Origin: Eledone cirrhosa
Lineage: Eukaryota
Assembly: GCA_964016885.1 (NCBI GenBank)
Contig: OZ024753.1
Span: 20,522,001 to 20,586,000 of the forward strand
Length of the DNA stretch: 64,000 bases
Direction: 5' to 3'
A program made the translations under genes and the position numbers. The notes below the pieces were generated by a model. It was not told the DNA's origin, did not search any database, and was given only the letters and a program-made list of their open reading frames with translations. This document shows, piece by piece, positions 1-62,500 of the stretch; within the stretch, counting starts at the first letter, position 1; the number at the start of each line of letters is the position of its first letter.

Positions 1-3000
1 ACAGTGTATTGTCTGCGGAGTTGGGAATGATGTGTGTGTGGTGTGATACATTGTAGAGTCTGGGGAGTTGGGAAGGATCTGTGTGTGTTGTGATACAGTG
101 TAGTATCTGGGGAGTTGGTAAGTATCTGTGTGTTGTGATACAGTGTATTGTCTGGGGATTTGAGAATGATCTGTGTGTGTTGTGTTACAGTGGAGTGTCT
201 GGGGAGTTGGGAAGGGTATGTGTGTGGTGTGATACAGTGTAGTGTCTGGGGTGTTGGGAAGGATCTGTGTGTGTTGTGATACAGTGTAGTGTCTGTGGTG
301 TTGGGAAGGATCTGTGTGTGTTGTGATACAGTGTAGTGTCTGGGTAGTTGGGAAGGATCTCGGTGCTGTGATACAGTATAGTGTGTGGGGAGTTGGGAAG
401 CGTCTGTGTGTGTTGTGATACAGTGTAGTGTCTGGGTAGTTGGGAAGTATCTGTGTGTGTTGTGATACATAGTATTGTCGGGGGAGTTGGTAAGGATCTG
501 TATGTGTTGTGATACATTGTAGTGACTTGGGAGTTGGGAAGGAGCTGTGTGTGTTGTGATACATTGTAGTATCTTGGGAGTTGGGAAGGAGCTGTGTGTG
601 TTGTGATACATTGTAGTGTCTTGGGAGTTGGGAAGGAGCTGTGCGTGTTGATACAGTGTAGTGTCTTGGGAGTTGGGAAGGATGTGTGTGTGTTGTGATA
701 CATTGTAGAGTCTGGGGAGTTGGGAAGGGTCTGTTTGTATTGTGATACAGTGTAGTGTCTGGGGAGTAGGGGATGATCTGAGTGCAGTGATACGGTGTAG
801 TGTCTGGGGTGTTGGGAAGGATATATGTGTGTTGTGATACAGTGTAGTGTCTGGGGAGTTGGGAGGGATCCGTGTTCGTTGTGATACAGTGTAGTGTCTG
901 GGGAGTTGGGAAGGATCTGTGTGTGTTGTGATACAGTATAGTGTCTGGGGTGTTGGGAAGGATCTGTGTGTGTTGTGATACAGTGTAGTGTCTGGGGTGT
1001 TGGGGAGGATCTGTGTGTGTTGTGATACAGTGTAGTGTCTGGGGTGTTGGGAAGGATTTGTGTGTGTTGTGATACAGTAGGGTGTCTGGGGAGTTGGGAA
1101 GGATCTGTGTGTGTTGTGATGCAGTATAGTGTCTGGGGAGTTGGGAAGGAACTGTGTTTGTTGTGATACAGTATAGTCTCTGGGGATTTAGGAATGATCT
1201 GTGTTTGTTGTGATACATTGTAGAGGCTGGGGAGTTGGCAAGAGTTTCTGTGTGTGTTGTGATACAGTGTAGTGTCTGGGGAGTTGGGAAGGATATGTGT
1301 GTTGTGATACAGTGTAGTATCTGGGGAGTTGGGAAGGATATGTGTGTGTTGTGATACAGTGTAGTGTCTGGGGAGTTGGGAAGGATATGTGTGTGTTGTG
1401 ATACAGTATAGTGTCTGGGGAGTTGGGAAGGAACTGTGTTTGTTGTGATACAGTATAGTGTCTGGGGACTTGGGAATGATCTGTGTGTGTTGTGATACAG
1501 TGTAGTGTCTGGGGAGTTGGGAAGGATATGTGTATATTGTGATACAGTTTAGTGTCTGGGGAGTTGGGAAGGATCTGTGTGTTGGGATAAAGTGTAGTGT
1601 CTGGGGAGTTGGGAAGGATGTGTGTGTGTTGTGATACATTGTAGATTCTGGGGAGTTGGGAATGATCTGTGTGTTGGGAAAATATAGATGTGTTGTTATA
1701 CAGTGTAATGTCTGGGGAGTTGGGAAGGGTCTGTGTGTGGTGTGATACATTGTAGTGTCTTGGGAGTTGGAAAGGAGCTGTGTGTGTTGTGATACAGTGT
1801 ATTGTCTGCGGAGTTGGGAATGATGTGTGTGTGGTGTGATACAGTGTAGTGTCTGGGGAGTTGGGAAGGATCTGTGTGTGGTGTGATACAGTGTAGTGTC
1901 TGGAGAGTTGGGAAGGATCTGTGTGTGTTGTGATACAGTGTAGTGTCTGGGGAGTTGGGAAGGATCTGTGTGTGTTGTGATACAGTATAGTGTCTGGGGT
2001 GTTGGGAAGGATCTGTGTGTGTTGTGATACAGTATAGTGTCTGGGGAGTTGGGAAGGATCTGTGTGTGTTGTGATACAGTAGAGTGTCTAGGTAGTTGGG
2101 AAGGATCTGTGTGTGTTGTGATACAGTATAGTGTCTGGGGAGTTGTGAAGGAACTGTGTTTGTTGTGATACAGTGTAGTGTCTGGGGAGTTGGGAAGGAA
2201 CTGTGTTTGTTGTGATACAGTGTAGTGTCTGGGGATTTGGGAATGATCTGTGTGTGTTGTGATGCAGTATAGTGTCTGGGGAGTTGGGAAGGAACTGTGT
2301 TTGTTGTGATACAGTATAGTCTCTGGGGATTTAGGAATGATCTGTGTTTGTTGTGATACATTGTAGAGGCTGGGGAGTTGGCAAGAGTTTCTGTGTGTGT
2401 TGTGATACAGTGTAGTGTCTGGGGAGTTGGGAAGGATATGTGTGTTGTGATACAGTGTAGTATCTGGGGAGTTGGGAAGGATATGTGTGTGTTGTGATAC
2501 AGTGTAGTGTCTGGGGAGTTGGGAAGGATATGTGTGTGTTGTGATACAGTATAGTGTCTGGGGAGTTGGGAAGGAACTGTGTTTGTTGTGATACAGTATA
2601 GTGTCTGGGGACTTGGGAATGATCTGTGTGTGTTGTGATACAGTGTAGTGTCTGGGGAGTTGGGAAGGATATGTGTATATTGTGATACAGTTTAGTGTCT
2701 GGGGAGTTGGGAAGGATCTGTGTGTTGGGATAAAGTGTAGTGTCTGGGGAGTTGGGAAGGATGTGTGTGTGTTGTGATACATTGTAGAGTCTGGGGAGTT
2801 GGGAATGATCTGTGTGTTGGGAAAATATAGATGTGTTGTTATACAGTGTAATGTCTGGGGAGTTGGGAAGGGTCTGTGTGTGGTGTGATACATTGTAGTG
2901 TCTTGGGAGTTGGAAAGGAGCTGTGTGTGTTGTGATACAGTGTATTGTCTGCGGAGTTGGGAATGATGTGTGTGTGGTGTGATACATTGTAGAGTCTGGG

Positions 3001-6000
3001 GAGTTGGGAAGGATCTGTGTGTGTTGTGATACAGTGTAGTATCTGGGGAGTTGGTAAGTATCTGTGTGTTGTGATACAGTGTATTGTCTGGGGATTTGAG
3101 AATGATCTGTGTGTGTTGTGTTACAGTGGAGTGTCTGGGGAGTTGGGAAGGGTATGTGTGTGGTGTGATACAGTGTAGTGTCTGGGGTGTTGGGAAGGAT
3201 CTGTGTGTGTTGTGATACAGTGTAGTGTCTGTGGTGTTGGGAAGGATCTGTGTGTGTTGTGATACAGTGTAGTGTCTGGGTAGTTGGGAAGGATCTGGGT
3301 GCTGTGATACAGTATAGTGTGTGGGGAGTTGGGAAGCGTCTGTGTGTGTTGTGATACAGTGTAGTGTCTGGGTAGTTGGGAAGTATCTGTGTGTGTTGTG
3401 ATACATAGTATTGTCGGGGGAGTTGGTAAGGATCTGTATGTGTTGTGATACATTGTAGTGACTTGGGAGTTGGGAAGGAGCTGTGTGTGTTGTGATACAT
3501 TGTAGTATCTTGGGAGTTGGGAAGGAGCTGTGTGTGTTGTGATACATTGTAGTGTCTTGGGAGTTGGGAAGGAGCTGTGCGTGTTGATACAGTGTAGTGT
3601 CTTGGGAGTTGGGAAGGATGTGTGTGTGTTGTGATACATTGTAGAGTCTGGGGAGTTGGGAAGGGTCTGTTTGTATTGTGATACAGTGTAGTGTCTGGGG
3701 AGTAGGGGATGATCTGAGTGCAGTGATACGGTGTAGTGTCTGGGGTGTTGGGAAGGATGTGTGTGTGTTGTGATACATTGTAGAGTCTGGGGAGTTGGGA
3801 ATGATCTGTGTGTTGGGAAAATATAGATGTGTTGTTATACAGTGTAATGTCTGGGGAGTTGGGAAGGGTCTGTGTGTGGTGTGATACATTGTAGTGTCTT
3901 GGGAGTTGGAAAGGAGCTGTGTGTGTTGTGATACAGTGTATTGTCTGCGGAGTTGGGAATGATGTGTGTGTGGTGTGATACATTGTAGAGTCTGGGGAGT
4001 TGGGAAGGATCTGTGTGTGTTGTGATACAGTGTAGTATCTGGGGAGTTGGTAAGTATCTGTGTGTTGTGATACAGTGTATTGTCTGGGGATTTGAGAATG
4101 ATCTGTGTGTGTTGTGTTACAGTGGAGTGTCTGGGGAGTTGGGAAGGGTATGTGTGTGGTGTGATACAGTGTAGTGTCTGGGGTGTTGGGAAGGATCTGT
4201 GTGTGTTGTGATACAGTGTAGTGTCTGTGGTGTTGGGAAGGATCTGTGTGTGTTGTGATACAGTGTAGTGTCTGGGTAGTTGGGAAGGATCTGGGTGCTG
4301 TGATACAGTATAGTGTGTGGGGAGTTGGGAAGCGTCTGTGTGTGTTGTGATACAGTGTAGTGTCTGGGTAGTTGGGAAGTATCTGTGTGTGTTGTGATAC
4401 ATAGTATTGTCGGGGGAGTTGGTAAGGATCTGTATGTGTTGTGATACATTGTAGTGACTTGGGAGTTGGGAAGGAGCTGTGTGTGTTGTGATACATTGTA
4501 GTATCTTGGGAGTTGGGAAGGAGCTGTGTGTGTTGTGATACATTGTAGTGTCTTGGGAGTTGGGAAGGAGCTGTGCGTGTTGATACAGTGTAGTGTCTTG
4601 GGAGTTGGGAAGGATGTGTGTGTGTTGTGATACATTGTAGAGTCTGGGGAGTTGGGAAGGGTCTGTTTGTATTGTGATACAGTGTAGTGTCTGGGGAGTA
4701 GGGGATGATCTGAGTGCAGTGATACGGTGTAGTGTCTGGGGTGTTGGGAAGGATATATGTGTGTTGTGATACAGTGTAGTGTCTGGGGAGTTGGGAGGGA
4801 TCCGTGTTCGTTGTGATACAGTGTAGTGTCTGGGGAGTTGGGAAGGATCTGTGTGTGTTGTGATACAGTATAGTGTCTGGGGTGTTGGGAAGGATCTGTG
4901 TGTGTTGTGATACAGTGTAGTGTCTGGGGTGTTGGGAAGGATCTGTGTGTGTTGTGATACAGTGTAGTGTCTGGGGTGTTGGGAAGGATTTGTGTGTGTT
5001 GTGATACAGTAGGGTGTCTGGGGAGTTGGGAAGGATCTGTGTGTGTTGTGATACAGTATAGTGTCTGGGGTGTTGGGAAGGATCTGTGTGTGTTGTGATA
5101 CAGTATAGTGTCTGGGGAGTTGGGAAGGATCTGTGTGTGTTGTGATACAGTATAGTGTCTGGGGAGTTGGGAAGGATCTGTGTGTGTTGTGATACAGTAT
5201 AGTGTCTGGGGTGTTGGGAAGGATCTGTGTGTGTTGTGATACAGTGTAGTGTCTGGGGTGTTGGGAAGGATCTGTGTGTGTTGTGATACAGTGTAGTGTC
5301 TGGGGTGTTGGGAAGGATCTGTGTGTGTTGTGATACAGTATAGTGTCTGGGGAGTTGGGAAGGATCTGTGTGTGTTGTGATACAGTATAGTGTCTGGGGT
5401 GTTGGGAAGGATCTGTGTGTGTTGTGATACAGTGTAGTGTCTGGGGAGTTGGGAAGGATCTGTGTGTGTTGTGATACAGTGTAGTGTCTGGGGAGTTGGG
5501 AAGGATCTGTGTGTGTTGTGATACAGTGTAGTGTCTGGGGAGTTGGGAAGGATATGTGTGTGTTGTGATACAGTGTAGTGTCTGGGGAGTTGGGAAGGAT
5601 CTGTGTGTGTTGTGATACAATATAGTGTCTGGGGTGTTGGGAAGGATCTGTGTGTGTTGTGATACAGTGTAGTGTCTGGGGTGTTGGGAAGGATCTGTGT
5701 GTGTTGTGATACAGTATAGTGTCTGTGGAGTTGGGAAGGATCTGTGTGTGTTGTGATTCAGTATAGTGTCTGGGGTGTTGGGAAGGATCTGTGTGTGTTG
5801 TGATACAGTGTAGTGTCTGGGGAGTTGGGAAGGATTTGTGTGTGTTGTGATACAGTGTAGTGTCTAGGGAGTTGGGAAGGATCTGTGTGTGTTGTGATAC
5901 AGTATAGTGTCTGGGGAGTTCGGAAGGATCTGTGTGTGTTGTGATACAGTATAGTGTTTGGGGTGTTGGGAAGGATCTGTGTGTGTTGTGATACAGTGTA

Positions 6001-34020: not shown

Positions 34021-34689
34021 TAAGCTTGAAACTAGTAGATAAGCTTGAAACTAGTACAGCGTTCCTTTGTCTGTGTTGAACCAACGAGCAGCGATGGTTG
34101 CTAGACTCTACGGCTTAATGCGGGATGTTTGTTTACAAAGACACCGAGCATTATAACAAATGTTCGGTGAATCCATACGTACATATATATATATGTGTGC
34201 ATGTATGTATATATATATACATACTACTGTACGTCTGTATACATATATGTATGTACGTGTACATACTTATATTTAAGTAACAGCCGTACTAAGAGTAGGA
34301 AATGAAATTTCGTTTCATTTTTTACATTTATCGTTTTCGGTGCACCCGGCCGATTAACCCACTCGATATGCAAATTGTGCTACTCAGCCGTTAATATGCA
34401 TAAGGTAAGTATATACTTTCAGACGTTCAACAATCTGGCGGGAAGGTATACTTTGCTGATGATAGCTAATAAGCTTGAAACTAGTACAGCGTTCCTTTGT
34501 CAGTGTTGAACAAAGGAGCAACGATGGTTGCTAGACACTACGGCTTAATACGGGATGTTTGTTTACAAACACACCGACCATTATAATAAATGTTCAGTGA
34601 ATACATACGTACATATATATATGTGTGCATGTATGTATATATATATACATACTACTGTACGTCTGTATACATATATGTATGTACGTGTA

Positions 34690-34690
<1 letters not shown>
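34021..34690 (+). mobile_element. Retrozyme-like non-coding tandem unit (~430-nt monomer bounded by hammerhead family E), ~1.5 copies
   Basis: 34040-34260 recurs at 34470-34690; aagcttgaaactagta ends at 34056 and 34486 (430 nt apart); full hammerhead at 34449-34493; no coding capacity. Confidence 0.7.
34449..34493 (+). ncRNA. Type I hammerhead ribozyme motif, family E
   Basis: CTGATGA-t-agct-aata-agct-t-GAAA-ctag-TA-cagcgtt; palindromic stem III (actagt); GUA site; stem I imperfect in this copy. Confidence 0.75.
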
Positions 34691-35143
<453 letters not shown>

Positions 35144-35347
35144 GTATTAAGTATACTATTTATGGTTATGCAAATACAAAAACCTGTTGTAGTTATATAT
35201 ATTTTTAAAAACCCTAAATAGTGGTAGGCAGTAATATATTACTACCTTATTACCAGTAAGTTAATTAGCTCAATGTAATAACATCAGATGATTTACAGAG
35301 CAGTTATATGAATAATAAGAATCAAAGAACTGTTCAAAACATTTTTA

Positions 35348-35394
35348 TGCTGACAACTGTTTCCACCAAACCGAGGTTTGGTTTCTTCGGAGCA
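35348..35394 (-). ncRNA. Hammerhead-like motif, family F (CCGAAGA core variant, GUC site)
   Basis: Minus strand: tgct-CCGAAGA-a-accaaacc-tc-ggtttggt-g-GAAA-cagttg-TC-agca. Confidence 0.6.
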
Positions 35395-35852
35395 ATTTAT
35401 TATTGAATGAAAATGTCGCAGTGCATGAAATCCATATCATCGCTTCGCTACGCATTTCCAATATGTTTTATGCTTACATTATTTTTAATGCTTATATTAT
35501 TTCTCCACGCACAGGCTATAACAATCATATAAAGAATTCATTACCAAATCATCCCCCTTAACACTCTTGATCACCTGTTTAAGTGCTTCTATTACACGTA
35601 ACTCTCTGCCACACTATATAAACAAGACGCACGTGCTTGCCACACGTATAACTATTGAACTCTATAACCGCTTAATTTCATGTTGTATTTTAAGCTGTAT
35701 TTTTGATTGTATCTTTTAATATGAATGTAATCTCTAAATGTGTACTGCCACACTAAATGCTGTAATGAATGTTGACCCACAATATTTGCATATGTATCTG
35801 TATGTCTCTTGGGTGAAAAGGAGGTCATATAAGTTTTCATTCAATAATAAAT

Positions 35853-35899
35853 TGCTCCGAAGAATCCAAACCTCGGTTTGGAGGAAACAGTTGTAAGCA
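35853..35899 (+). ncRNA. Hammerhead-like motif, family F (CCGAAGA core variant, GUA site)
   Basis: tgct-CCGAAGA-a-tccaaacc-tc-ggtttgga-g-GAAA-cagttg-TA-agca. Confidence 0.6.
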
Positions 35900-35942
35900 T
35901 AAAAAATGTTTTAAACAGTTCTTCGATTCTTATTATTCATAT

Positions 35943-36667
<725 letters not shown>

Positions 36668-36706
36668 ATATATAAGAACAATTGATGGTTAAAAGAGTTC
36701 CATGTA

Positions 36707-36773
36707 TTTTATTATGCGCATTTCAAAAACAAATATCATCATGCAATAATATTTGTGTTTTCATCAGATAAAA
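36707..36773 (-). ncRNA. Type I hammerhead ribozyme, family A
   Basis: Minus strand: ttttat-CTGATGA-long stem II (aaacacaaatattattgcatgatgatatttgttttt)-GAAA-tgcgca-TA-ataaaa. Confidence 0.85.
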
Positions 36774-37785
36774 CAGGAAGACATGATATGAAGGTTAAAA
36801 AACACTTGTGGATAGTTCCGTTTTAAATCAACATATGAGAAGTAGTTTTAGATTGATGTGTGATATTGGGAAAAAATATTTTATTTAGAGGGGGGTGGAA
36901 AGGATGAAAAAAAGGAGATGAGAGTGAAGGTGGAGAGGGAGGAGTATAATGAGGAAGGATGAGATAGGAGGAGAGATGGGTGATAGAGAGAGAGAGATAG
37001 CTTTTATAACTGAGAAAGATATATTGTTTTACATAGAGAGGTTGAAAACCGTTGGAAGATAATGTATGAATTAAAAGAATTTGAAAATTAACGAAGAGAA
37101 AAATAATGTAAAGTTAAGGTTTGTATATTGAGGGGTTTGATATGTGCGAAGAAAAAGAAAGAGTTAATATGTATTGAGAATAATGAGTTAGATGATAGGG
37201 AGAAAAGAATAATGAATTGAGGATGAATAATCTAACGTAAAAAAAAATGTATATGTTTACGAAGGATTTTTACAAGGTGATATAGAGTAAGAATGTGTTG
37301 TATTATGTAATAATTGATTCTATGTCAGGCAAGAGTGAGAAAAGGTACAGATTAGGGGTTAGATATTAGAAGAGAAGAAAAGGAAGTGATAAATATGGGT
37401 GATGTAGAAAGAGTAAACAAGTATTATAGAATTTGAAAATTAACGAAGAGAAAAATAATGTAAAGTTAAGGTTTGTATATTAAGGGTTTGATAATATGTG
37501 CGAAGAAAAAGAAAATGTTAATATGTATTGAGAATAATGAGTTAGATGAAAGGGAGGAAAGAATAATGAATTGAGGATGAATAATCTAACGTCAAAAAAA
37601 ATGTATTTGTTTACGAAGGATTTTTACAAGGTGATATAGAGTAAGAGTAATGAGTAAACAAGTATTATAGAATGTATAATAACCTTTGAAATAAGGTAGA
37701 AAGATGGGTATATTTTTAAAAGAAGTGTATATATATATATATGTGCCTTTGAGAAAAAGATTCTAAATTGATAAAGAATTGAATA

Positions 37786-39172: not shown

Positions 39173-39298
39173 GTAGGAGGTGAGTTTTATTGTAGTACAA
39201 TAAAGCAATGCAGATATCGGATAAGAAGCACTCTACAGTTTGTAGGACTGGAGTATGCATAATATAAGATCAAAAGATGGTTAAAGGAGTTCCATGTA

Positions 39299-39365
39299 TT
39301 TTATTATGCGCATTTCAAAAACAAACATCATCATGCAATAATATTTGTGTTTTCATCAGATAAAA
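39299..39365 (-). ncRNA. Type I hammerhead ribozyme, family A (inverted arm)
   Basis: Reverse complement of 42486-42552. Confidence 0.85.
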
Positions 39366-40132
39366 CAGGAGAACATGATATGAAGGCTAAAAAACACTTG
39401 TGGATAGTGCAGTTTTAAATCTACATATGAAAAGTGGTTTTAGATTGATGTGTGATATTGGGAAAAATATTTTATTTAGAGAGGGGGGGGTGGAAAGGAT
39501 GAAAAAGGGGGAGGAGATGAGAGGGAGAGATGGGTGATAGAGAGAAAGAGATAGCTTTTATAACTGAGAGGAGATATACTGTCCCACACAGAGAGGTTGA
39601 AAACCGTTGGAAGATAATGTATAAACCCCCAAAAAATTTTTGAAAATCAACGAAAGGAGGATATGTGCGAGGAAAAAGTATTTTATTTAAGGAGGGGGGC
39701 TGGAAAGGATGAAAAAAAGGGGGAGGAGATGAGAGTGAAGGTGGAGAGGGAGAGATGGGCGATAGAGAGAAAGAGATAGTTTTTATAACTGAGAGAAAGA
39801 TACATTGCCTTACACAGAGAGGTTGAGAAACCGTTGGAAGATAATGTATAAATTAAAGGTATTTGAAAATTAACGAAGGGAATTTATGTATGAAGATAGA
39901 GAGAAGAAATAATAATTGTGGATGAATATTCTAACGTCAAAAAAAGGGTATGTTGTGGCAATTTCAAAATTAACGAAGAGAAAAATTATTAAGGTTTGTG
40001 TAGAAGGATTTGAGAAAAATAATGTGAAGTTAAAGTTTGTATATTGGAGGAATTGATAATATATGCGAATAGAGTTGATATGTATTAAGAATGAGTTCGT
40101 TGATGGGGAGAAAAAAAATATATATATATATA

Positions 40133-41425: not shown

Positions 41426-42485
41426 TATTCAATTCTTTATCAATTTAGAATCTTTTCTCAAAGGCACATATACATACACCTCTTAAAAATATACCCGTCT
41501 TCCTACCATACTTTAAAGGGCTTTATACATTCTATAATACTTGTTTACTCATTACCCTCACTCTATCTTCACCTTGTAAAATCATTCATAACATATACAT
41601 GTTTTTTTTTGTTTTTTTTTTTGACGTTAGAATATTTATCCGCAATCATTATTTTTTTCTCTCACTCATAAATCTTTTTAATCTCAATTTCATCCTTAAT
41701 TTATTTTTTTTTATTTTTATTTATTTTTTTTTTTTTTCTCCTCATCAACGAACTCATTCTTAATACATATTAACTCTATTCGCATATATTATCAATTCCT
41801 CCAATATACAAACTTTAACTTCACATTATTTTTCTCAAATCCTTCTACACACAAACCTTAATAATTGTTCTCTTCGTTAATTTTGAAATTGCCACAACAT
41901 ACCCTTTTTTTGACGTTAGAATATTCATCCACAATTATTATTTCTTCTCTCTATCTTCATACATAAATTCCCTTCGTTAATTTTCAAATACCTTTAATTT
42001 ATACATTATCTTCCAACGGTTTCTCAACCTCTCTGTGTAAGGCAATGTATCTTTCTCTCAGTTATAAAAACTATCTCTTTTTCTCTATCGCCCATCTCTC
42101 CCTCTCCACCTTCACTCTCATCTCCTCCCCCTTTTTTTCATCCTTTCCAGCCCCCCTCCTTAAATAAAATACTTTTTCCTCGCACATATCCTCCTTTCGT
42201 TGATTTTCAAAAATTTTTTTGGGGTTTATACATTATCTTCCAACGGTTTTCAACCTCTCTGTGTGGGACAGTATATCTCCTCTCAGTTATAAAAGCTATC
42301 TCTTTCTCTCTATCACCCATCTCTCCCTCTCATCTCCTCCCCCTTTTTCATCCTTTCCACCCCCCCCCTCTCTAAATAAAATATTTTTCCCAATATCACA
42401 CATCAATCTAAAACCACTTTTCATATGTAGATTTAAAACTGCACTATCCACAAGTGTTTTTTAGCCTTCATATCATGTTCTCCTG

Positions 42486-42552
42486 TTTTATCTGATGAAA
42501 ACACAAATATTATTGCATGATGATGTTTGTTTTTGAAATGCGCATAATAAAA
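42486..42552 (+). ncRNA. Type I hammerhead ribozyme, family A
   Basis: ttttat-CTGATGA(42492)-stem II-GAAA(42535)-tgcgca-TA-ataaaa; palindromic stem III typical of dimer-forming PLE hammerheads. Confidence 0.85.
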
Positions 42553-42712
42553 TACATGGAACTCCTTTAACCATCTTTTGATCTTATATTATGTATATAT
42601 ATATATATGTATGAATGAAGTAATTCCGTCGGAAAAGTCCAGGAAAAAAGAGTGCTCTATGTAAGCAACAGAGCTTAATTATTATTATGTAATAAACAAC
42701 ATCAGGCAATTA

Positions 42713-42772
42713 TTCCATTTACCAGTGGTTTCTTAAAAGCAAAAGGTTTTGCTTTCAATCCTCAGAATGAAA
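42713..42772 (-). ncRNA. Type I hammerhead ribozyme, family D (inverted arm)
   Basis: Reverse complement of 44366-44425. Confidence 0.8.
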
Positions 42773-44365: not shown

Positions 44366-44425
44366 TTTCATTCTGAGGATTGAAAGCAAAACCTTTTGCT
44401 TTTAAGAAACCACTGGTAAATGGAA
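44366..44425 (+). ncRNA. Type I hammerhead ribozyme, family D
   Basis: tttcatt-CTGAGGA-ttgaaagcaaaa-cc-ttttgcttttaa-GAAA-ccactgg-TA-aatggaa. Confidence 0.8.
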
Positions 44426-44963: not shown

Positions 44964-45029
44964 TATTTCATTATATATATTTCAGGGATATCATATTAAC
45001 AATATGCTATGCCTTCCTCAGACAAAATA
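44964..45029 (-). ncRNA. Type I hammerhead ribozyme, family C
   Basis: Reverse complement of 48047-48112, in sense orientation downstream of the ORF. Confidence 0.8.
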
Positions 45030-48046: not shown

Positions 48047-48112
48047 TATTTTGTCTGAGGAAGGCATAGCATATTGTTAATATGATATCCCTGAAATATA
48101 TATAATGAAATA
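48047..48112 (+). ncRNA. Type I hammerhead ribozyme, family C (inverted arm)
   Basis: tattttgt-CTGAGGA-aggcatagcatattgttaatatgatatccct-GAAA-tatata-TA-atgaaata. Confidence 0.8.
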
Positions 48113-51270: not shown

Positions 51271-52410
51271 TTAATTGTAAGTTGTGATGTTGCTGTTCCA
51301 CTCATATTTTCTATTTAATTTTGGTTTTAATTCTTTTATGCTTACTGCCTCTGTAATTTGCCTAAACATTGCGTCTCTTCTGTGTGTGGATTCTATTTTT
51401 ATTTCTATGCTCTCTAATCTACCCCTGTGTTCTATCTTAGCATGTTGGTAGAGCACAGATGATTCTTTATTATCTTGGAGGTCTCGCCAGTGTTCATTTA
51501 TTCGTTCCCCTATACTACGAGCTGTCTCACCTATGTACACTATATTTTTGTTTCTACATTGTCCTTCAGTACATCTTATGCTATACACTACATTTCTAGT
51601 TTTACAGTTAATATGGGGGCTTATTTTACAGGTTATACATTTCTTATCTATACATGAGGGTCTTTGGAACGGGTATGTCTTGCTAATAAGTGTTTTTACG
51701 GAGGTACCAGGTCTTTCTACTATCTTAATATTGAGATTATGTTTATTTAGGGCCCTTCTAAATTTGTAGGCTAGTTCGCCTCTAGGGGTTGTATTGATGA
51801 ACATTACACTCTGGTATTTATTGCTATCATACCATGAGTTTATTCTATTGGCCTTGTTCCTAGTTCTTTCTATTCTATTCCAAAATTTGCTCCTATACAA
51901 GGGGCAGGTCCCATTTATGTCATTATTTACCATTTTTTCCCATTTGGTTCTGGCTCCTTTATACACTCTGATTCTATCTCTCTGATTGTAGCCAGAGAAC
52001 TGCATACGGTGGATGAAGTGTTGTATGTGTCTCTCTAGTTGTTCGGGGTTGCACATGCGGCACACATTTCTCATCACCCGTACCAAATCCGCAATCAGTA
52101 TGTTGATTTTGGTATGGTCCGAAATGGCCGAGTTTCGGTGGATCAGATGTTTGGAAGTCATGGGCTGGCATAATGGGAATGGAGGATTTGTTTTTGGTTG
52201 TTAATGGTATCTAACCAGAGCTCTGTGTCTAGTACAGGTAATCGATGGTTGGGGTGTCTACTTGGGTAGTCTATAGTAACTCTAATGCTCTGGTGGATGG
52301 AGTTTGCTATTTGCTGGATGCTTTCCATTGTGTTTTTCTCTAGTTCCTGACTGTTCTTTAGTGGGGGTGTCATAACTACGATGTTTATATCATCTACGTA
52401 GCGGGAGTAC
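51271..52410 (-). pseudogene. PLE RT (from YVDD) plus GIY-YIG endonuclease, frameshift near 52160
   Basis: YSRYVDDI, LPVLDTELW; then CIDKKCITC, VVYSIRC..VYIGETARSIGERINEH, RQITEAVSI..LNRKYEW. Confidence 0.9.
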
Positions 52411-54562
<2,152 letters not shown>

Positions 54563-54889
54563 GATAAATCTACCAAAAGTTTACGGTAGTGTCCAATCCG
54601 TATGAAGAACTCAATGTAATCCGGATATCATGAAAAGAGAAGATGCATTCAAAAACTACTTTCGGTGAAAAATAAACGGAAAACAGAGTCAAGATAAATT
54701 ATTAAAAAAATAATGAATAAACAAAGAAACAGTTCCTTATATTAAACAAAAAAAGTTCATTATTTTACGATCGTTCCTCGGATATATATGTGTTAGAATT
54801 AGTATGCATATTCTATAGATCTATGTACAATATTTATACAAACTATCAGAGGGAATATACATACCTTCACATATATATGCTGTCTTCAG

Positions 54890-54974
<85 letters not shown>

Positions 54975-54997
54975 TATGTATATATATATATATATAT

Positions 54998-56943
54998 GTG
55001 TGACTGGTGGTTGATCTACCCTCTCTGAAGCCGTTCTGGTTGTCCCTGAGCTTCTTCTCCATCTCAGGCTGGATTCTGTTAAGAATCATCCTGTTGAGGG
55101 TCTTTGCCACAAGTGACGTCAGTGAGATCCCCCGGTAGTTGTTGGTGTTAGAGAGATCTCCCTTCTTTGGCACTGGGACGATGTTACTGATCCTCCACTG
55201 ATTCGGGGCAACTCCTTTCTCCAGTGCCCCGTTACAGAACCCCAGGATGATATCATCAAAATCACACCTCTTCATCACCTCTGATGCCACTCCATCTTCT
55301 CCATGAGCCTTGCCCTCCTTGATCTTCTTCTTGGCTCTCTGAAGCTCCTCTCTGGTGAAGGGCTCTGTCTCAACATCCAGTTCCTCAAACAGCAGCCTGA
55401 TCTCCCCAGTGCTCTGGGCTGTGGAGGGTGGCTCTCCTAGTAGGGTCCTAAAATGGTCTAGCCATTTCCTCTTCCTATCCTCGGGCCCCGTTCCCTGGAT
55501 CTGACTCGAACACCTTTTCTTTCTCCCTGTGATCTCGTTGATGATCATCCAGCTCTCCTTACATCCAGATCTGTCAACCGCTCTCTCCACACTTCTGATC
55601 TTCTCTATCAGTGCCTCCTCTCTGACCTCAGTGTAAGCGGTACAGAGCTCTTCCCTCATCACCTCGACAGTCTCCATCCTCTCCTCCGTAGGATCAGCAT
55701 AGAATTGGTCCCTGGCAGCTTTCAGGTGTTCTCTGGCTGCACACACTTTTGGGTTTGCAGAGCTGACGTGCTTCTCTTTGTTCTTTTTCCTCGGCACCAG
55801 GGTTTCACTTGCTTTCGCCTCTGCATTGGTGAAGTGCCCGTACCTCCTCGTCACACTCTCCCCAGTCCATCCAATCTCTCTCTCCTCTGACTCTCCACAC
55901 AGAGCACTAAACCTGTTTCTCACTTCCACTGTGAACCTCTCCTGTAGCTTATCATCTTCCTTGAAAGCTCCCCAGTCATAGATTGTTCTCCGGGGCTGAG
56001 CCTTGCTCTTTCTTAAGTTCACGCGGACCTCACTCATAACAAGCCGGTGGTCACTACCCAGTGTACTGAAATAGCTGTATGGTTCCGTGTTCAGACCACT
56101 ATTCCGCCACTTTTTCCTCACCAGAATGAAATCAATTTGGGACTTGGACAGGTGCATATCTGAGATGTAGGTCCACATCTTCCCCAGATTCTTCCTAAAC
56201 CTTAGGTTGGTCGCCATCAAGTTCGCCTCCAGCAGGGTGTCTCTCAGTAGTCTTCCATTTCGGTTGGTGTTGTTATGGAAGTACCAGCAAGGATCTTCAC
56301 TGCCCTCCTTACTCAGATGTGCATTGAAGTCCCCCAAAACAAGCAGGATATTGTGTGCCTGAGTGGTGTTGACAGCTCTACACACCTCCTCATGGAACTC
56401 CTCGGCATTCACATCACTGTCCCCCTCGGTTGGACTATAGGTTGAGATGACTGTCAGTCTTGGGTTTCCATTGAAGGTCACCCTCAACACTCGCGGGGAG
56501 ATAGGCATTATTTCCCTCACCAACAGATTGGATTTTGCACTGAACACAAAACCCACTCCTCCTACTGCAGCATTTGTTGTGTTCTTCACTGCCGATGTAG
56601 TGATGAGCTGGCTCTTCCTCCCGATCATCACACTCCTCACGGGCTCATCGTGTAGAATCCTGTGTTCTTGGATCGCAAGTATCTGTATACCACTCTCCTC
56701 GAACAGATGTCCCAACTCCTCTCTCTTCTCCAGCGTTCGAATAGTCCTCACATTCAAAGTGCCCATTTTGATGGCTCTTCTGCAGGACAAAACTGCATTC
56801 TTTATATTTGTCTCAGAGACAGCTGATCCATCATCCACTGGCCCTCACTGTGGCTCTAAGCCAGCAGAGTCATGACGACCAGGCTGCTCCTTGACAGTGT
56901 AATTAGGGGCTCTAACCCTAGTGCTGTTAGATCGACTCTCCAT
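54998..56943 (-). pseudogene. LINE ORF 5' part: AP endonuclease plus RT N-terminus (ATG 56943, in-frame TGA at 56845-56847)
   Basis: GTLNVRT, IQEH, YSPT, GDFNAH, IDFIL, SDH; PVPKKGD..NYRGISL, QNGFR. Confidence 0.9.
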
Positions 56944-57150
56944 ATTTCTTTTCAATGGCTGACAATACCTTACCGGCGCCACTCGAATAAGGTAGTTATT
57001 TAACCCATAAATGGAGCCCTAACAGGTACTACCACCCCGGGCCAGGGCAGACCTGGGAGTCATGACAACTAAGGGGTAACTCCACATTCCCCACATCTCC
57101 TGAACTCCCGAATTGGAGCCTTGCCACTGGATGTGGTTTAATGTCATACC

Positions 57151-58299
57151 CTGATACTGAGGAGGATATTAGAGGGAGCTAGAGCAAAGTGCCTTCCTGC
57201 GGTCATGGTTTTCATTGACTTTAGGAAGGCCTTTGATTCTGTGGACGGTTACTGCCTGATGAAGATCTTACAGGCTTATGGAATCCCCAAGAGGATAGTG
57301 GACATGATATCACTGCTCTACACCAACACCAAAGCCCAAGTCATTACACCTGATGGGATGACAGAGTTCTTTGAGATAATGGCTGGAGTGCTCCAGGGAG
57401 ATACATTGGCTCCCTACCTTTTTATCATCGCAGTGGACTATTGTATGCGCCTTGCACTGGAGAAACACCAGGACTCTGGCTTTACTGTAGCACCGGCTCA
57501 GAGCAGGAGAGTTCGGGCGAAAAAGGTATCGGATGCTGAATTTGCCGACGACATAGTTTTGGTGACAAATACAGTGAAGGAGGCAGAGGATTTGATGCGG
57601 GAGGTTGAGACTGTGTCGATGAGTGTGGGGCTTAGAATGAATGAGACTAAAACAAAATATCTGGTAGAGAATGTTGAGAAGCCAGAGGGGATCACTAATG
57701 TAGGCGGGAAGCCGCTGGAATTGGTTGAGGACTTCCTGTATTTGGGAGCAAAGATTGGGAATACGGAAGATGATGTGGTTGAGAGGAAGAGCAAGGCCTG
57801 GGCGGCGTGTCACAGCTTGAGATCGGTGTGGAAGTCGGACCTTCGTAGAGACCTGAAAATCCGCCTCTTCATTGCTGTAGTGGAGTCTGTGCTGCTGTAT
57901 GGGTCTGAGACTTGGACACTGACCAAGAGACTCACTCAGATGGTGGATGGGTGCTACACGAGAATGCTGAGGATGGCTCTGAACATTAATCAGTATACCC
58001 TGAGGATGAAAATCTCAGAGCTGTATGGGAGCATCCCAAAAGTCAGCTCAAATGTGACACAGAGGAGACTGAGTTTGGCTGGACCTGCTCACCGACATCC
58101 AGAGTTGACATTGCACTCAGTGCTCCTTTGGGAGCCCCTACATGGACACACTAGAAAAGGAAGACCAAGGTTAACATATGTTGATGCCCTAAGGACAGAC
58201 ACTGGTCTGTTGGAGATGCAGGATATGGCAGCGATAATGAGGGACAGAAACCGCTGGAGAGAACTCGTCCATGGATCTCGGGAATTTTACCCGCCTTAG
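57151..58299 (+). pseudogene. LINE ORF 3' part: reverse transcriptase core and C-terminus
   Basis: FIDFRKAFDSV, GVLQGDTLAP, FADD, FLYLG, LLYGSETW, RKGRPR. Confidence 0.92.
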
Positions 58300-58401: not shown

Positions 58402-59131
58402 TAGTATTAATAGTATTAATTATACTATTTATGGTTATATAGATACAAAAACCTTTTGCAGTTATATATATGTTTTTATACAAACCCTAAATAGTGGTAG
58501 GCAGTAATATATTACTACCCTATTACCAGTAAGTTAAGTAGCTCCATGTAAAAACATCAGATGATTTACAGAGCAGTTATATGAAATATAAGAATCAAAG
58601 AACTGTTTAAAACATTTTTATGCTTACAACTGTTTCCTCCAAACCGAGGTTTGGATTCTTCGGAGCAATTTATTAATGAATGAACACTTATATGACCTAC
58701 TTTTCACCCAAGAGACATACAGATACATATGCAAATATTGTGGGTCAACATTCATTACAGCATTTAGAGTGGCAGTACACACTTAGAGATTACATTCATA
58801 TTAAAAGATACAATCAAAAATACAGGTTAAAATACAACATGAAAATAAGCGGTTATATAGTGCAAATGTTATATGTGTTGCAAGCACGTGCGTCTTGTTT
58901 ATATAGTGTGGCAGAGAGTTACGTGTAGTAGAAGCACTTAGGTAGGTAAACAAGAGTGTTAGGTTGGTTGATTTGGTGGCAAATTCTTTATATGATTGTT
59001 ATAGTCTGTGTGTGGTGAAATGATATAAGCATTAAAAATAGTGCAAGCATTAAGAATATTAAAAATATTTAAAATATTGGAAATGCACAGCGAAGGGATG
59101 TTATGGACTTCATGTACTTCGACATTTTCAT
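58402..59131 (-). mobile_element. Second, unrearranged copy of family F
   Basis: Similar to both arms of 35141-35942. Confidence 0.7.
58621..58667 (-). ncRNA. Hammerhead-like motif, family F (CCGAAGA core variant)
   Basis: Same motif as 35853-35899. Confidence 0.6.
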
Positions 59132-59259
59132 AGTCAGGGGAATGTATTTTTCAGATTATATGCCCCTCACATAATCCACGACAATTCGATATTGAGCGTT
59201 TGACAATCCAGTTAGAGAATCGTAGTCTGATGTTCTTTAGTTCAATACAGGAGGATGTT

Positions 59260-62200
59260 ACGTTTCGAGAATCGACATTGAAATACTACCCGGAAGTGTG
59301 TGTGTGGCTAAGGGGAGTTAATGCATGAGGGGAGGTAACTCCGAGGTTTCTATTTCTAACTATTAAATGTGTCTCAAAAAGCCCCCCTCATAACACACTA
59401 CTTAACTCCTTTGAAAATGACCTAGTTAAACTAGTTAAGAACATTAAATACAATAAGCACCATAATAGAAGCAACACATTCTTAAACAAACTTAACACCT
59501 CTATTAATGGATTCAAAACTAGTAATAAAATTATTGTACACGCAGATAAAACTAATAACATATACAGCCTAGATTATAATACTTATAGAAAGTTTATATA
59601 TAATGAACTACATAAAAGCTACAAGAAGACCACCTTGAAAAACTTAGAAGATATTAATATAGAGGGATATAATATAGTGTCTAAACTAGGACTTCAGAGG
59701 CATACACAACCATTCACCCCAAACCCCCCTAGATTCTCTCTGAAGGACCATAAGGAGGACTTCATCAGCAACCCCTCGATAAGACTTATCTGCCCTTCCA
59801 AGTCCGACATTGGTATTATCAGCAAGAAAATTTTAGATAAAATCATCCCACAAATTAAACACAAGATACACCTTAAACAATGGGGTAATACGGGTGAAGT
59901 GATTGAATGGTTCAAAGATATCAAGAATAATAAGGACAAAAAATTTATTCAATTTGATATCAATTCATACTACACCTCTATTTCCCCTATCCTATTAAAT
60001 AAGGCACTAATCATGGCCACGAACAATAGCGACCTGACTAGAGCCCAGATTGATGTCATCCTTGCGGCCCGTAAAACCACAATCACCTTCGAGGACCAAC
60101 TATGGACACGCAAGGATACGCACAACAACTTCGACATAACCATGGGATCTTGTGACTCGGCGCAGGTCACTGATTTGGTCGGCCTATACCTTCTTAATGA
60201 AATCCATAAGGACCTCCCTTACCTCAACGGTGGTTTGTACCGCGATGATGCACTTCTACTTATAGAATATAAAAAATTTAATATAGAAAGAACTAGAAAA
60301 CTATTGCACAAGACATTCAAAAACTTTAACCTTAGTATCACCATGGACAAAAACACTAAAAATGTTAACTTTCTAGACGCCACACTATACCTAGACTCAA
60401 AAATATATACACCTTTCCATAAGCCTAACAAAAAACTCATTTAGCTAGATACCAAGTCTAATCACCCAAGATCAATATTAAACTCTATCTCTAAGGGGGT
60501 ATCCAATAGAATCTCTTATCTATCCTATGACGCAAACATATTTAGCAAAAACTCACAATATTGCAATCAAGCATTAGCTAGATCCGGCCATAATATAGAA
60601 ATTGAGTTCCTACCTAAGAAAACACATAGCTACAACATCATCTCGCACAACATGTCCATGAGGAAATCTAATAATAGGAATAGCAACCACAAGTACACCA
60701 AAGCGGAGGGTGCCACCGGAAGTAACCATTACCACGGAAACTACCGTAGTGCCTTAGGAAGAAACAACACACCAAACACTAAAAACAAAAATAGAAGAAG
60801 AAATAATACATTTTTCAACCCTCCTTTCAACCTAAATGTCTCCACCAACATACCTAGGGCTTTCTTCTCACTACTAGATAAAAACTTCCCTCTAGGACAC
60901 AAGTACCACAACCTTTTAAACAAAAACACTATTAAAATCTCTTACTCTACGACGCCTAACTTAGCATACCACATAGCTAGCAGCAATAAAAGTAAAATTA
61001 ATTCTTACTTCCAACAAACGAAATCACAACAGGATGTAAACCTTCTAAATACCTCTGTAGCAAGCAACCATAGTAACGGCAGTAACAATAGAAATAACAC
61101 TAGTATAAGAAATAACACCGGGGTCGACAACCCGAATGTCCAAAATCCTATAGCTACCACCCAGACTTCTGCACTGCATTATAACCAGCAGACTAACACA
61201 CAGGATAATTGTAACTGTAGAGCTAATAGAACCTGCCCTTTAGATAAAAAATGCCTAAACAAGGATATCATATACTCATGCACCGTCACAACTAGCAACT
61301 CTTCAGAAACCTATGTAGGCTCCACTTCTAACTGCTTCAAAATCAGATATAATTCGCACATCCACTCGTTCAAAAAGCACAGTCTAGCCCAACTCCACCT
61401 CACTATCTAGCTACATACACTATCTAAAAACTAAAAATAAACCTTACACACTCAAATGGGAAGTGATAGGTAGCGCGACTTCGTACGAACCACCTAATAA
61501 ATTTTGTAACCTCTGTATACTAGAGACCCACAATATTATCTTCTCTAACCGTAACCTACTTAACAAAAAATCTGAAGTGTTTGCAACTTGCCAGCACCGC
61601 TTCAGACATTCCTTCCACAACTTTAAGCCCAATATATAGCAATGTCGGACTTGAACCAAACACCACCTCTAGCATCAAACACCAGGGGCACACCTTATAC
61701 CACATACCCAACACTAATTGATCTAATATAACACAAACAGCGACATCCCTCTTGAACCCTTCGCAGGGCGAATACCCATTTATACCTCTATGTTAGGTGT
61801 GACAACATCCACCCACTTGAACTGCACTACACCGCTCTATAGGTAATTTAAGCATGAATTGATTGTCTTGTTAGTGTTGTGCGGAGGAAGTGCCTTCGTT
61901 GGACAGATGAAAAACGATTTAATCTAGTAACGCTGTTGAGAAGTATGACCGGTACGCTGAGTGCAGAGAATGAATGTATTGCAACTGGCGTACGGGTTGT
62001 ACATATATGGATGATTTGATGGTTTGAGTGGGGTCATGAGGACTGCGGATTGACCTCTGGTCGGCCCTGGTGATGATTATCTTTCGACATCCAATGTAGC
62101 AAGCGATGACCCAGAGCTTACCAGAGATCATTATTGTGTTGAAGTGATTCTGCAATCACCGCGCCTGGTCCTATGAGTAGACTACAACCACAGAGATCAT

Positions 62201-62500
62201 TAATTTAGAATCCTCGCTCATCGTCTATAATATTCATTTGTGGCACTCTACGATGGGGGTCAATTCACCATAATAATACGAACACCTTCAGCACAACTTA
62301 ATAGACTACTCTATATTTAAAACACTTTATGCTTTAGAAATTTTTTAGAAGTTGCGCATAACCATAGAAATTAGGGTCTGTTTTGAGACACATTTAATAG
62401 TTAGTAATAGAAACCTCGGAGTTACCTTCCCTCATGCATTAACTCCCCTTAGCCACACACACACTTCCGGGTAGTATTTCAATATCGATTCTCGAAACGT
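59260..62500 (+). mobile_element. Naiad-type Penelope-like element, nearly complete ORF, ~120-bp terminal inverted repeat
   Basis: 59260-59379 and 62381-62500 are inverted repeats flanking an RT+GIY-YIG pseudogene and a ~860-bp 3' region. Confidence 0.88.
59377..61639 (+). pseudogene. Naiad PLE RT plus GIY-YIG ORF with premature TAG (60442-60444) and frameshift near 61400
   Basis: FENDL, ADKTNNIY, RLICPSKSDIG, FDINSYYTSI, FDITMGS, GLYRDDAL, NFLD, SNHP, CNCRANRTCPLDKKC, IIYSC..YVGST, CNLC. Confidence 0.92.

What the first reader, a model, noticed from the sequence alone, without database searches (positions are those of the whole stretch)
35348..35899. Hammerhead family F has a recurrent non-canonical core (CCGAAGA, U4C) with a compensatory stem II change
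Seen: all three copies (35348, 35853, 58621) read CCGAAGA instead of CUGANGA and have an A.G apposition at the base of stem II. One copy swaps a stem II pair (t-a to a-t) and GUA to GUC, both of which keep the structure. Inference: the fold was under selection after U4C arose, so this may be a natural active or attenuated core variant that standard searches miss. It could instead be a dead lineage, and stem I is only 4 bp.
Basis: partly seen in the sequence, partly recalled or inferred. Interest (0 to 1): 0.7.

Follow-up and report, generated by a model that had tools for sequence, protein, structure and literature searches.

The report
Retrotransposon hammerhead with fixed altered core
About 7,000 copies of one branch of jumping genes in this animal genome carry a hammerhead RNA motif in which a near-universal core letter is changed from U to C, and because the rest of the fold stayed conserved while the branch diversified, it likely still cuts itself, probably slowly; cutting is untested.

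Summary
C4 is not a quirk of three copies: genome-wide the family reads C in 4,485 copies and U in 39. A wider clade pattern gives 6,922 C against 359 other letters. The U copies match neutral CpG decay (46 C-to-T at a loop CpG). The motif is the pLTR hammerhead of a 4.19-kb Hydra-clade Penelope-like element with intact ORFs. Three lineages, 57-73% identical in protein, form one clade, and all have C4. Better evidence supports the conclusion: stem II and the palindromic (dimer) stem III covary between lineages, free positions vary, and stem I extends beyond 4 bp. Most likely a slow, dimeric, probably protein-assisted ribozyme; cleavage is untested and no RNA data were available. Natural U4C is known from one viroid variant, and this scan noted it earlier in phage hammerheads. 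I found no report of it fixed across a retroelement clade, but could not read the key 2017 survey.

The parts
35348..35394 (-). Type I hammerhead motif, copy 1. C4 at 35389; private A10.2 (35382) and U11.2 (35365); GUC with predicted cut after 35352
35853..35899 (+). Type I hammerhead motif, copy 2. C4 at 35858; GUA with predicted cut after 35895
58621..58667 (-). Type I hammerhead motif, copy 3. C4 at 58662; predicted cut after 58625 on the minus strand
58604..58686 (-). Approximate reach of the predicted extended stem I around copy 3 (CAUU 58678-58675 with AAUG 58616-58613, plus an outer helix that is weakened in this copy)
   Evidence: on close relatives (predicted); this copy's own MFE does not form it
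35141..35409 (-). 3' end (pLTR) of the Hydra-clade element, 89.6% identical to unit positions 3921-4189 of L073
35407..35943 (+). Inverted, 5'-truncated half of the same insertion, 79% identical to unit positions 3468-4025
58410..59377 (-). 3' UTR/pLTR part of the second insertion (unit positions 3248-4189, 83%)
59377..62500 (+). Inverted ORF-bearing part of the second insertion (unit positions 241-3363, 92%); RT plus GIY-YIG-type ORF broken into three frames (59329-60444, 60445-61410, 61388-61639)
34613..35137 (.). (TA)n target microsatellite left of the first insertion
35939..36674 (.). (TA)n target microsatellite right of the first insertion

Best explanation
This is the pLTR hammerhead of a Hydra-clade Penelope-like retrotransposon whose whole three-lineage clade carries C at core position 4, and it likely still self-cleaves, probably slowly and as a dimer. 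Shown: the motif lies on the sense strand about 250 nt before the ORF and about 1.4 kb after it, so tandem units place two copies 4.17-4.20 kb apart. Inferred: in a read-through transcript the two copies would pair through their self-complementary stem III octamers and exchange stem I strands. Each would cut after GUA or GUC, releasing a unit-length RNA of about 4.19 kb. U4C and the unpaired 10.1-11.1 position are expected to lower the rate; the extended stem I and the element's own protein could offset this. The window's copies are inverted or truncated single motifs and are probably inert.
For: C4 fixed: 4,485 vs 39; 6,922 vs 359 in the wider clade; 90 of the first 100 of 475 in subfamily F2b; 25 of 25 motifs found in 30 loci ranked mainly by ORF DNA. 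U4 copies equal neutral CpG decay (39 vs 46 at the loop II CpG). Intact 832-aa frames between direct-repeat motifs in L071, L073 and L074; L073 and L074 differ at 4 of 281 four-fold sites, so C4 elements moved recently. The 8 C4 protein rows form one clade (SH-aLRT 100), and four-fold sites differ by 0.44-0.68 between lineages. Across that distance 28 of 45 motif positions are identical in five representatives, against 26 of 175 upstream and 17 of 95 downstream. Variation falls where a hammerhead allows it: N7 is A or U; position 17 is A 111, C 102, U 6, G 1 of 220; loop II is free. One stem II pair is A-U in 13 and G-C in 6 of 19 rows. Stem III is ACAAUUGU, ACAGUUGU, ACGAUUGU, ACAGCUGU or ACGAUCGU in 202 of 220 copies, all self-complementary. 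A natural U4C viroid variant is described as weaker in vitro but sufficient in vivo (PMC3088659). A PLE hammerhead cleaved only with its protein (PMC11167929).
Against: No cleavage was measured. In a deep mutational scan all single CUGA mutants had low activity (PMC9901934 passage). Minimal PLE hammerheads with a canonical core are already weak in vitro (PMC4209133), and F1 adds an A.G at 10.1-11.1. Hammerhead mutants did not impair insertion in vitro for another PLE. The 95 nt downstream are also conserved between F1 and F2 (76 of 95), so part of the constraint may be general to the pLTR. Both repeats of one tandem element carry a G5 change (C2:328474395 and 328478584), so a core-mutated template can insert at least once. 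Covariation counts come from 19 hand-picked, related rows and are inflated by relatedness. The computed active dimer is never the dominant fold (0.7-13.9 kcal/mol above the dimer ensemble with C4).
Confidence: 0.6

Rival explanations
1. The motif no longer cuts. Its fold is kept as a binding or folding element for the element's RT/endonuclease or for translation, which let the catalytic core drift at position 4 and at 10.1-11.1.
For: Hammerhead cleavage was dispensable for insertion in vitro in a Poseidon PLE and no read ends were seen at its cut site. Two departures from consensus coexist in F1. The region downstream is conserved too. The 10.2-11.2 pair is often broken (30 of 220 sampled copies unpaired).
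Against: Position 17 changes among A, C and U between subfamilies but is G in 1 of 220. G5, A6, G8, A9, G12-A15.1 and U16.1 are the same in all lineages, and the stem III palindrome covaries. This is the pattern that catalysis demands. Caveat: my patterns required most core letters, so within-sample invariance is partly circular.
Confidence: 0.2
2. C4 is adaptive: in this sequence context U4 would pair with stem III (CUG:CAG) or with the cleavage strand (CUGA:UCAG) and trap the core, so the C4 form is as active as, or more active than, the canonical one.
For: In silico U4 raises the cost of the active dimer by more than 0.3 kcal/mol in 10 of 19 representatives (2.2-5.1 in the ACAG-type F1 rows), and the misfolds appear in the monomer MFE. 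No U4 lineage has spread although C-to-T is the commonest change at this CpG (73 of 100 listed).
Against: The effect is near zero in 7 of 19 and reversed in 2 of 19. C4 creates its own competing pair with G16.2 (probability up to 0.83 in monomers). Five of 25 published Hydra hammerheads combine CUGA with ACAG. By my arithmetic (about 1.4 changes per neutral site over the three-lineage tree), one site staying unchanged has a chance near 0.25, so retention of C4 alone does not show preference.
Confidence: 0.13
3. A dead relic: C4 killed the ribozyme in one founder, and the motif has only hitchhiked with a successful element.
For: A young burst can copy any neutral change thousands of times.
Against: The three lineages are separated by 0.44-0.68 differences at four-fold sites, and most of the 3' UTR no longer aligns. 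Yet the core, stems and palindrome persist with two-sided changes.
Confidence: 0.07

Closest known systems
Hammerheads of Hydra-clade Penelope-like elements (Craig et al. 2021, PMC8557442; section 11 and supplementary File S2 read)
   Same: Sense-strand type I motif near the 3' end; short self-complementary stem III; frequent mismatch at 10.1-11.1 (U.U in 14 and U.C in 1 of 25 families); (TA)n targets; protein with RW[K/R], DKT, CxCx5C, CxxC and CxH motifs.
   Different: All 25 listed families read CUGA (their descriptor required it); this clade reads CCGA. The unit is 4.19 kb, against mostly under 3 kb. The 10.1-11.1 apposition is A.G, U-A, A.A or C.A.
Minimal PLE hammerheads of metazoans (Cervera and De la Pena 2014, PMC4209133; parts 1-2 of 4 read)
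   Same: Long helix II (7-8 bp), short proximal helix I (4-5 bp), palindromic stem III, predicted dimer, opposite-strand pairs 100-700 bp apart.
   Different: They report a conserved G10.1-C11.1 and, as a core variant, U3-A8. No C4 appears in the parts I read; supplements were not seen.
Natural U4C viroid hammerhead (Ambros and Flores 1998; not held; known only through the passage and reference in PMC3088659)
   Same: Same core change; described as much weaker in vitro but sufficient in vivo.
   Different: A single viroid sequence variant, against a fixed state of about 7,000 copies in three retroelement lineages, in a dimer-type motif.
Sporadic U4C hammerheads in phage contigs (earlier scan notes; my check)
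   Same: Complete hammerhead folds with CCGAUGA: 4 of 121 sampled C4 matches, against 1 of 120 for A4, 0 of 120 for G4 and 76 of 134 for U4.
   Different: Minority variants with G10.1-C11.1 and a monomeric stem III; unrelated sequence.

Membership tests
Hammerhead ribozyme (type I) | Three helices around the core in type I order | tested here: met
   stem III only as an intermolecular palindrome
Hammerhead ribozyme (type I) | Core C3, G5, A6, G8, A9, G12, A13, A14, A15.1-U16.1, H17 | tested here: met
   (partly fixed by the search patterns)
Hammerhead ribozyme (type I) | U at core position 4 | tested here: not met
   C in 6,922 vs other letters in 359; hence filed as a core variant, not as a canonical member
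Hammerhead ribozyme (type I) | Paired 10.1-11.1 (usually G-C) | tested here: not met
   A.G 105, U-A 80, A.A 18, C.A 15, A-U 1, U.U 1 of 220 sampled; paired in most F2/F3 copies, not in F1
Hammerhead ribozyme (type I) | Site-specific self-cleavage 3' of H17 | not testable with these tools
   needs an in vitro assay or RNA end data
Rfam hammerhead models | Match at any threshold | tested here: not met
   no hammerhead family at E<=10 for 58450-58800; the same for U4 families A and B
Dimer-type PLE hammerheads | Located in the pLTR, sense to the ORF, repeated in tandem units | tested here: met
   L073 motifs at 2798 and 6987 flank ORF 3054-5552; likewise L071 and L074
Dimer-type PLE hammerheads | Self-complementary stem III | tested here: met
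   98.7% of cells paired in 19 rows, 2 of 4 pairs with two-sided change; self-duplex -3.4 to -11.1 kcal/mol in 18 of 19
Dimer-type PLE hammerheads | Cleavage as dimer, not monomer | not testable with these tools
   inferred from PMC4209133 and PMC6765202 passages
Hydra clade of Penelope-like elements | Single ORF, RT followed by C-terminal GIY-YIG-type endonuclease | tested here: met
   832-aa frame with YRDD and VIY...TYVG read by eye; Pfam gave no hit above cutoff; 304 full-length-range homologues at E<=1e-20
Hydra clade of Penelope-like elements | RWK, DKT, CxCx5C linker, CxxC and CxH around the terminal E and N | tested here: met
   RWR (variant of RWK), DKT, CNCRANRTC, CNLC, CQH, against the list
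Hydra clade of Penelope-like elements | (TA)n insertion preference and inverted 5'-truncated partners | tested here: met
Hydra clade of Penelope-like elements | Phylogenetic placement with the published Hydra proteins | not tested
   published proteins were seen only as truncated supplement text and were not in my tree

The most novel reading that the evidence does not exclude
An entire, still mobile retrotransposon clade runs on a hammerhead whose supposedly invariant U-turn reads CCGA and whose 10.1-11.1 pair is free. C4 is kept because the canonical U would misfold here, or because slow cutting suits the element. Hammerhead cores would then be tunable by natural selection, and CUGANGA-based surveys would have missed whole PLE lineages.
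Probability: 0.2. Interest if true: 0.75.

Novelty: new variant of a known kind. Interest (0 to 1): 0.52.

Why it matters
Whether PLE hammerheads must cut for the element to spread is open: they are weak in vitro, and one study found them dispensable for insertion. This clade is a natural experiment. It has thousands of copies, intact recent elements, and a fixed core change with the rest of the fold conserved across deep lineages. A simple assay of natural against C4U RNA, with and without the element protein, separates slow-but-needed, compensated and non-catalytic readings. It also shows that descriptors requiring CUGANGA can miss whole families.

Tried and rejected
Compensatory a-t pair as proof of selection: rejected, singleton; hairpin-templated copying can also create such pairs, and one L022 copy shows a perfected hairpin. 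A hidden U4 source lineage: none in F2b (7 T of the first 100 of 475); U4 copies fall in all sampled subfamilies; other subfamilies were not counted separately. A second, unrelated C4 family: a loose pattern (287 matches, 135 in the control) suggested one with a GGAU/AUCC stem, but it is a U4 family (33 T, 3 C, 2 A, 1 G of 39). C4 as the cause of the Rfam miss: rejected; whole-window and whole-locus Rfam scans were swamped by (TA)n matches. Expression: no RNA holder listed; the runs laid were contigs of unrecorded kind and cannot show ends. Their holders under two other organism labels are low-depth or partial and were not interpreted. Metagenome pattern scan: 0 matches. Covariation of the extended stem I: mostly invariant or one-sided pairs, and a 2-nt register shift in F1 lowers the count to 53.5%; it is supported by folding (P>=0.69 in 16 of 19), not by strong covariation. 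The careful protein tree did not finish; the quick tree was used. Papers not held: Lunse 2017, Ambros and Flores 1998, Scott 2013.

Full report
Observation. A relaxed scan of the window gave 13 rows: two weak chance rows in the satellite, eight motifs with canonical CUGANGA in three families (here A, B, C), and the three CCGAAGA motifs at exactly the stated coordinates. The a-t swap, the GUC triplet and the A.G apposition are as described. The copies at 35348 and 35853 are the inverted halves of one roughly 800-bp insertion in (TA)n. The copy at 58621 belongs to a second, ORF-bearing inverted insertion.

C4 is the family state. The window lies in a 3.0-Gb genome. A 20-nt pattern has 4,485 matches with C4 and 39 with T4, with 0 in the reversed controls. 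A looser pattern covering related subfamilies has 6,922 with C4 and 359 with another letter (73 T, 16 G, 11 A in the 100 listed). The same pattern has 209 with a changed G5 (73 A in the 100 listed). In F1, the free CpG of loop II shows 46 C-to-T changes (of 56 non-C), close to the 39 at position 4, so U4 copies are ordinary decay. In subfamily F2b the first 100 of 475 matches are 90 C, 7 T, 2 A, 1 G. In 30 loci ranked mainly by ORF DNA, 18 held motifs, and 25 of 25 had C4. Read-derived contigs agree (T at depth 71 of 231,466 in X2), but these may come from the assembled sample and drop rare variants.

The element. Same-strand motifs 4.17-4.20 kb apart flank an intact 832-aa frame in L071, L073 and L074. 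A fourth candidate, L075, held mostly (TA)n. The motif is sense to the ORF, about 250 nt upstream of it and about 210 nt before the 3' (TA)n junction. The protein has RWR, DKT, YRDD, CxCx5C, a GIY-YIG-like pair, CxxC and CxH, which match the Hydra clade description (PMC8557442 section 11). Pfam gave nothing above cutoff. L073 and L074 differ at 4 of 281 four-fold sites, so C4 elements were recently mobile.

Depth of the C4 clade. F2 motifs (CCGAUGA, GAAA-type loop, ACGAUUGU, GUC) lie about 1.1 kb behind, or about 270 nt before, their own ORF in many loci. An F3 motif (CCAGAC/UCUGG) lies 1.3 kb behind an ORF in L199 and further behind one in L198; the F3 link rests on these two loci. In a quick ML tree of 35 rows (8 C4, 3 U4 from the window, 4 unassigned, 20 of the 120 listed homologues), the C4 rows form one branch with SH-aLRT 100. 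The sister group is unresolved and the root is a midpoint. Protein identity between lineages is 57-73% (lowered by frameshifts), and to U4 families A and C 32-41%. Four-fold sites differ by 0.44-0.49 (F2) and 0.57-0.68 (F3) from F1. Published Hydra motifs and the window's outgroups have U4, so C4 is most simply one derived change at the base of this clade (inference).

Selection on the fold. In five representatives, 28 of 45 motif positions are identical, against 26 of 175 upstream and 17 of 95 downstream. The pairwise F1-F2 downstream figure is high (76 of 95), so part of the constraint is regional. I tallied 220 distinct sampled copies, deliberately enriched for position 4 and 5 mutants, so those two columns are not frequencies. 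Position 17 is A, C or U in 219; N7 is A or U in 217; and 202 carry one of five self-complementary stem III octamers. On 19 hand-picked rows (four of them U4 copies and one a G5 mutant standing in for their subfamilies), 12 cells change on both sides, 0 of 500 shuffles reach that, and slid controls give 3-5. Related rows inflate this. Further stem II variants appear. Stem I continues past an internal loop: predicted probability is at least 0.69 in 16 of 19 rows, with a 2-nt register shift in F1. The 35348 copy is one of the three exceptions.

The compensated pair is private: 1 of the 100 listed (120 total) A10.2 copies has U11.2, and it is the window's own. The sampled rate of T at 11.2 is 2 of 220, so chance suffices. 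A mismatch at 10.1-11.1 is usual in Hydra motifs (15 of 25 families), and a U.U there is noted as tolerated (PMC3088659 section 8). Rfam misses both C4 and U4 families.

Mechanism. Shown: position, orientation, tandem spacing, conserved fold. From the literature: PLE motifs are weak and cleave as dimers (PMC4209133; PMC6765202 passages). One PLE motif cleaved only with its protein and was not needed for insertion in vitro (PMC11167929 passages). U4C lowers activity but sufficed for a viroid (PMC3088659 passage). All single CUGA mutants were low in a deep scan (PMC9901934 passage). Inferred: a double hammerhead in tandem transcripts cuts slowly to give unit-length RNA (0.6). In silico, U4 makes core-trapping helices that penalise the active dimer in 10 of 19 rows, is neutral in 7 and helps in 2. 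C4 makes a competing pair of its own, and five published U4 families have the same ACAG context, so the adaptive idea is a lead only (0.13). Retention of C4 itself is not significant on three lineages (about 0.25 by my arithmetic).

Novelty. Full-text searches found U4C together with hammerhead only in PMC3088659; none of the six papers listed for CCGAUGA (of 170 holding two of three terms) contained it. I read parts 1-2 of 4 of PMC4209133; passages and section 8 of PMC3088659; passages, section 11 and supplement part 2 (with File S2) of PMC8557442; part 1 of 5 of bioRxiv 10.64898/2026.07.22.740005; and passages of PMC11167929, PMC9901934, PMC6765202 and PMC6155905. Lunse 2017, the main survey of PLE hammerhead variants, was not held, and the supplements of the 2011 and 2014 papers were not seen; either could hold a prior C4 case. 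The hammerhead position numbering is recalled. Earlier scan notes report sporadic U4C in phage hammerheads. My capped samples gave full folds in 4 of 121 C4, 1 of 120 A4, 0 of 120 G4 and 76 of 134 U4 matches, which fits C being the tolerated substitute, on small numbers.

Verdict. A real, clade-wide core variant of a known ribozyme kind in a known retroelement clade, well suited to a simple decisive assay. Activity is not shown. Interest 0.52.

Noticed in passing
window 36705-36775(-), 39297-39367(-), 42484-42554(+), 53207-53277(+); 42713-42772(-), 44366-44425(+); 44964-45029(-), 48047-48112(+): Three further hammerhead families with canonical CUGANGA, A-U or U-A at 10.1-11.1 and palindromic stem III; A and C sit beside Hydra-type ORF fragments. 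Rfam misses A and B.
   Followed up: partly
L022:2287-2363: One copy has stem II extended into a perfect hairpin (the 5' core sequence copied into the 3' side), a likely template-switch product that destroys the motif.
   Followed up: no
L073:6932-7077, run X5 record 14: One low-depth contig has 26 differences in 146 nt, about ten of them A-to-G on the sense strand. It could be an A-to-I hyper-edited transcript, a genomic copy of one, or a diverged copy; the run's kind is not on record.
   Followed up: no
G000, F1 copies: In F1, G5-to-A copies outnumber C4-to-T copies about three to one over the same stretch (about 35 vs 12 by hand count), while in F2/F3 the ratio looks reversed. Unexplained.
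   Followed up: partly
G000: T-to-A at 10.2 occurs in 120 F1 copies across all three stem III types, about three times the CpG rate at position 4; a mutation hot spot or a tolerated mismatch.
   Followed up: partly
G000, (L693-L702): An old, diverse U4 hammerhead family with a 4-bp GGAU/AUCC stem II flanked by variable appositions and many palindromic stem III variants.
   Followed up: partly
window 1-32843: A 47-bp satellite of about 700 copies with a strong G/T strand bias.
   Followed up: no
window 54886-56844(-) and 57142-58299(+): A LINE-type element (endonuclease plus RT frames) split and inverted around a (TA)n tract; a further PLE-like fragment at 51271-52200(-) (read by eye).
   Followed up: no
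L260, L264, L286, L289: Phage-contig stretches that fold as complete type I hammerheads with CCGAUGA.
   Followed up: partly
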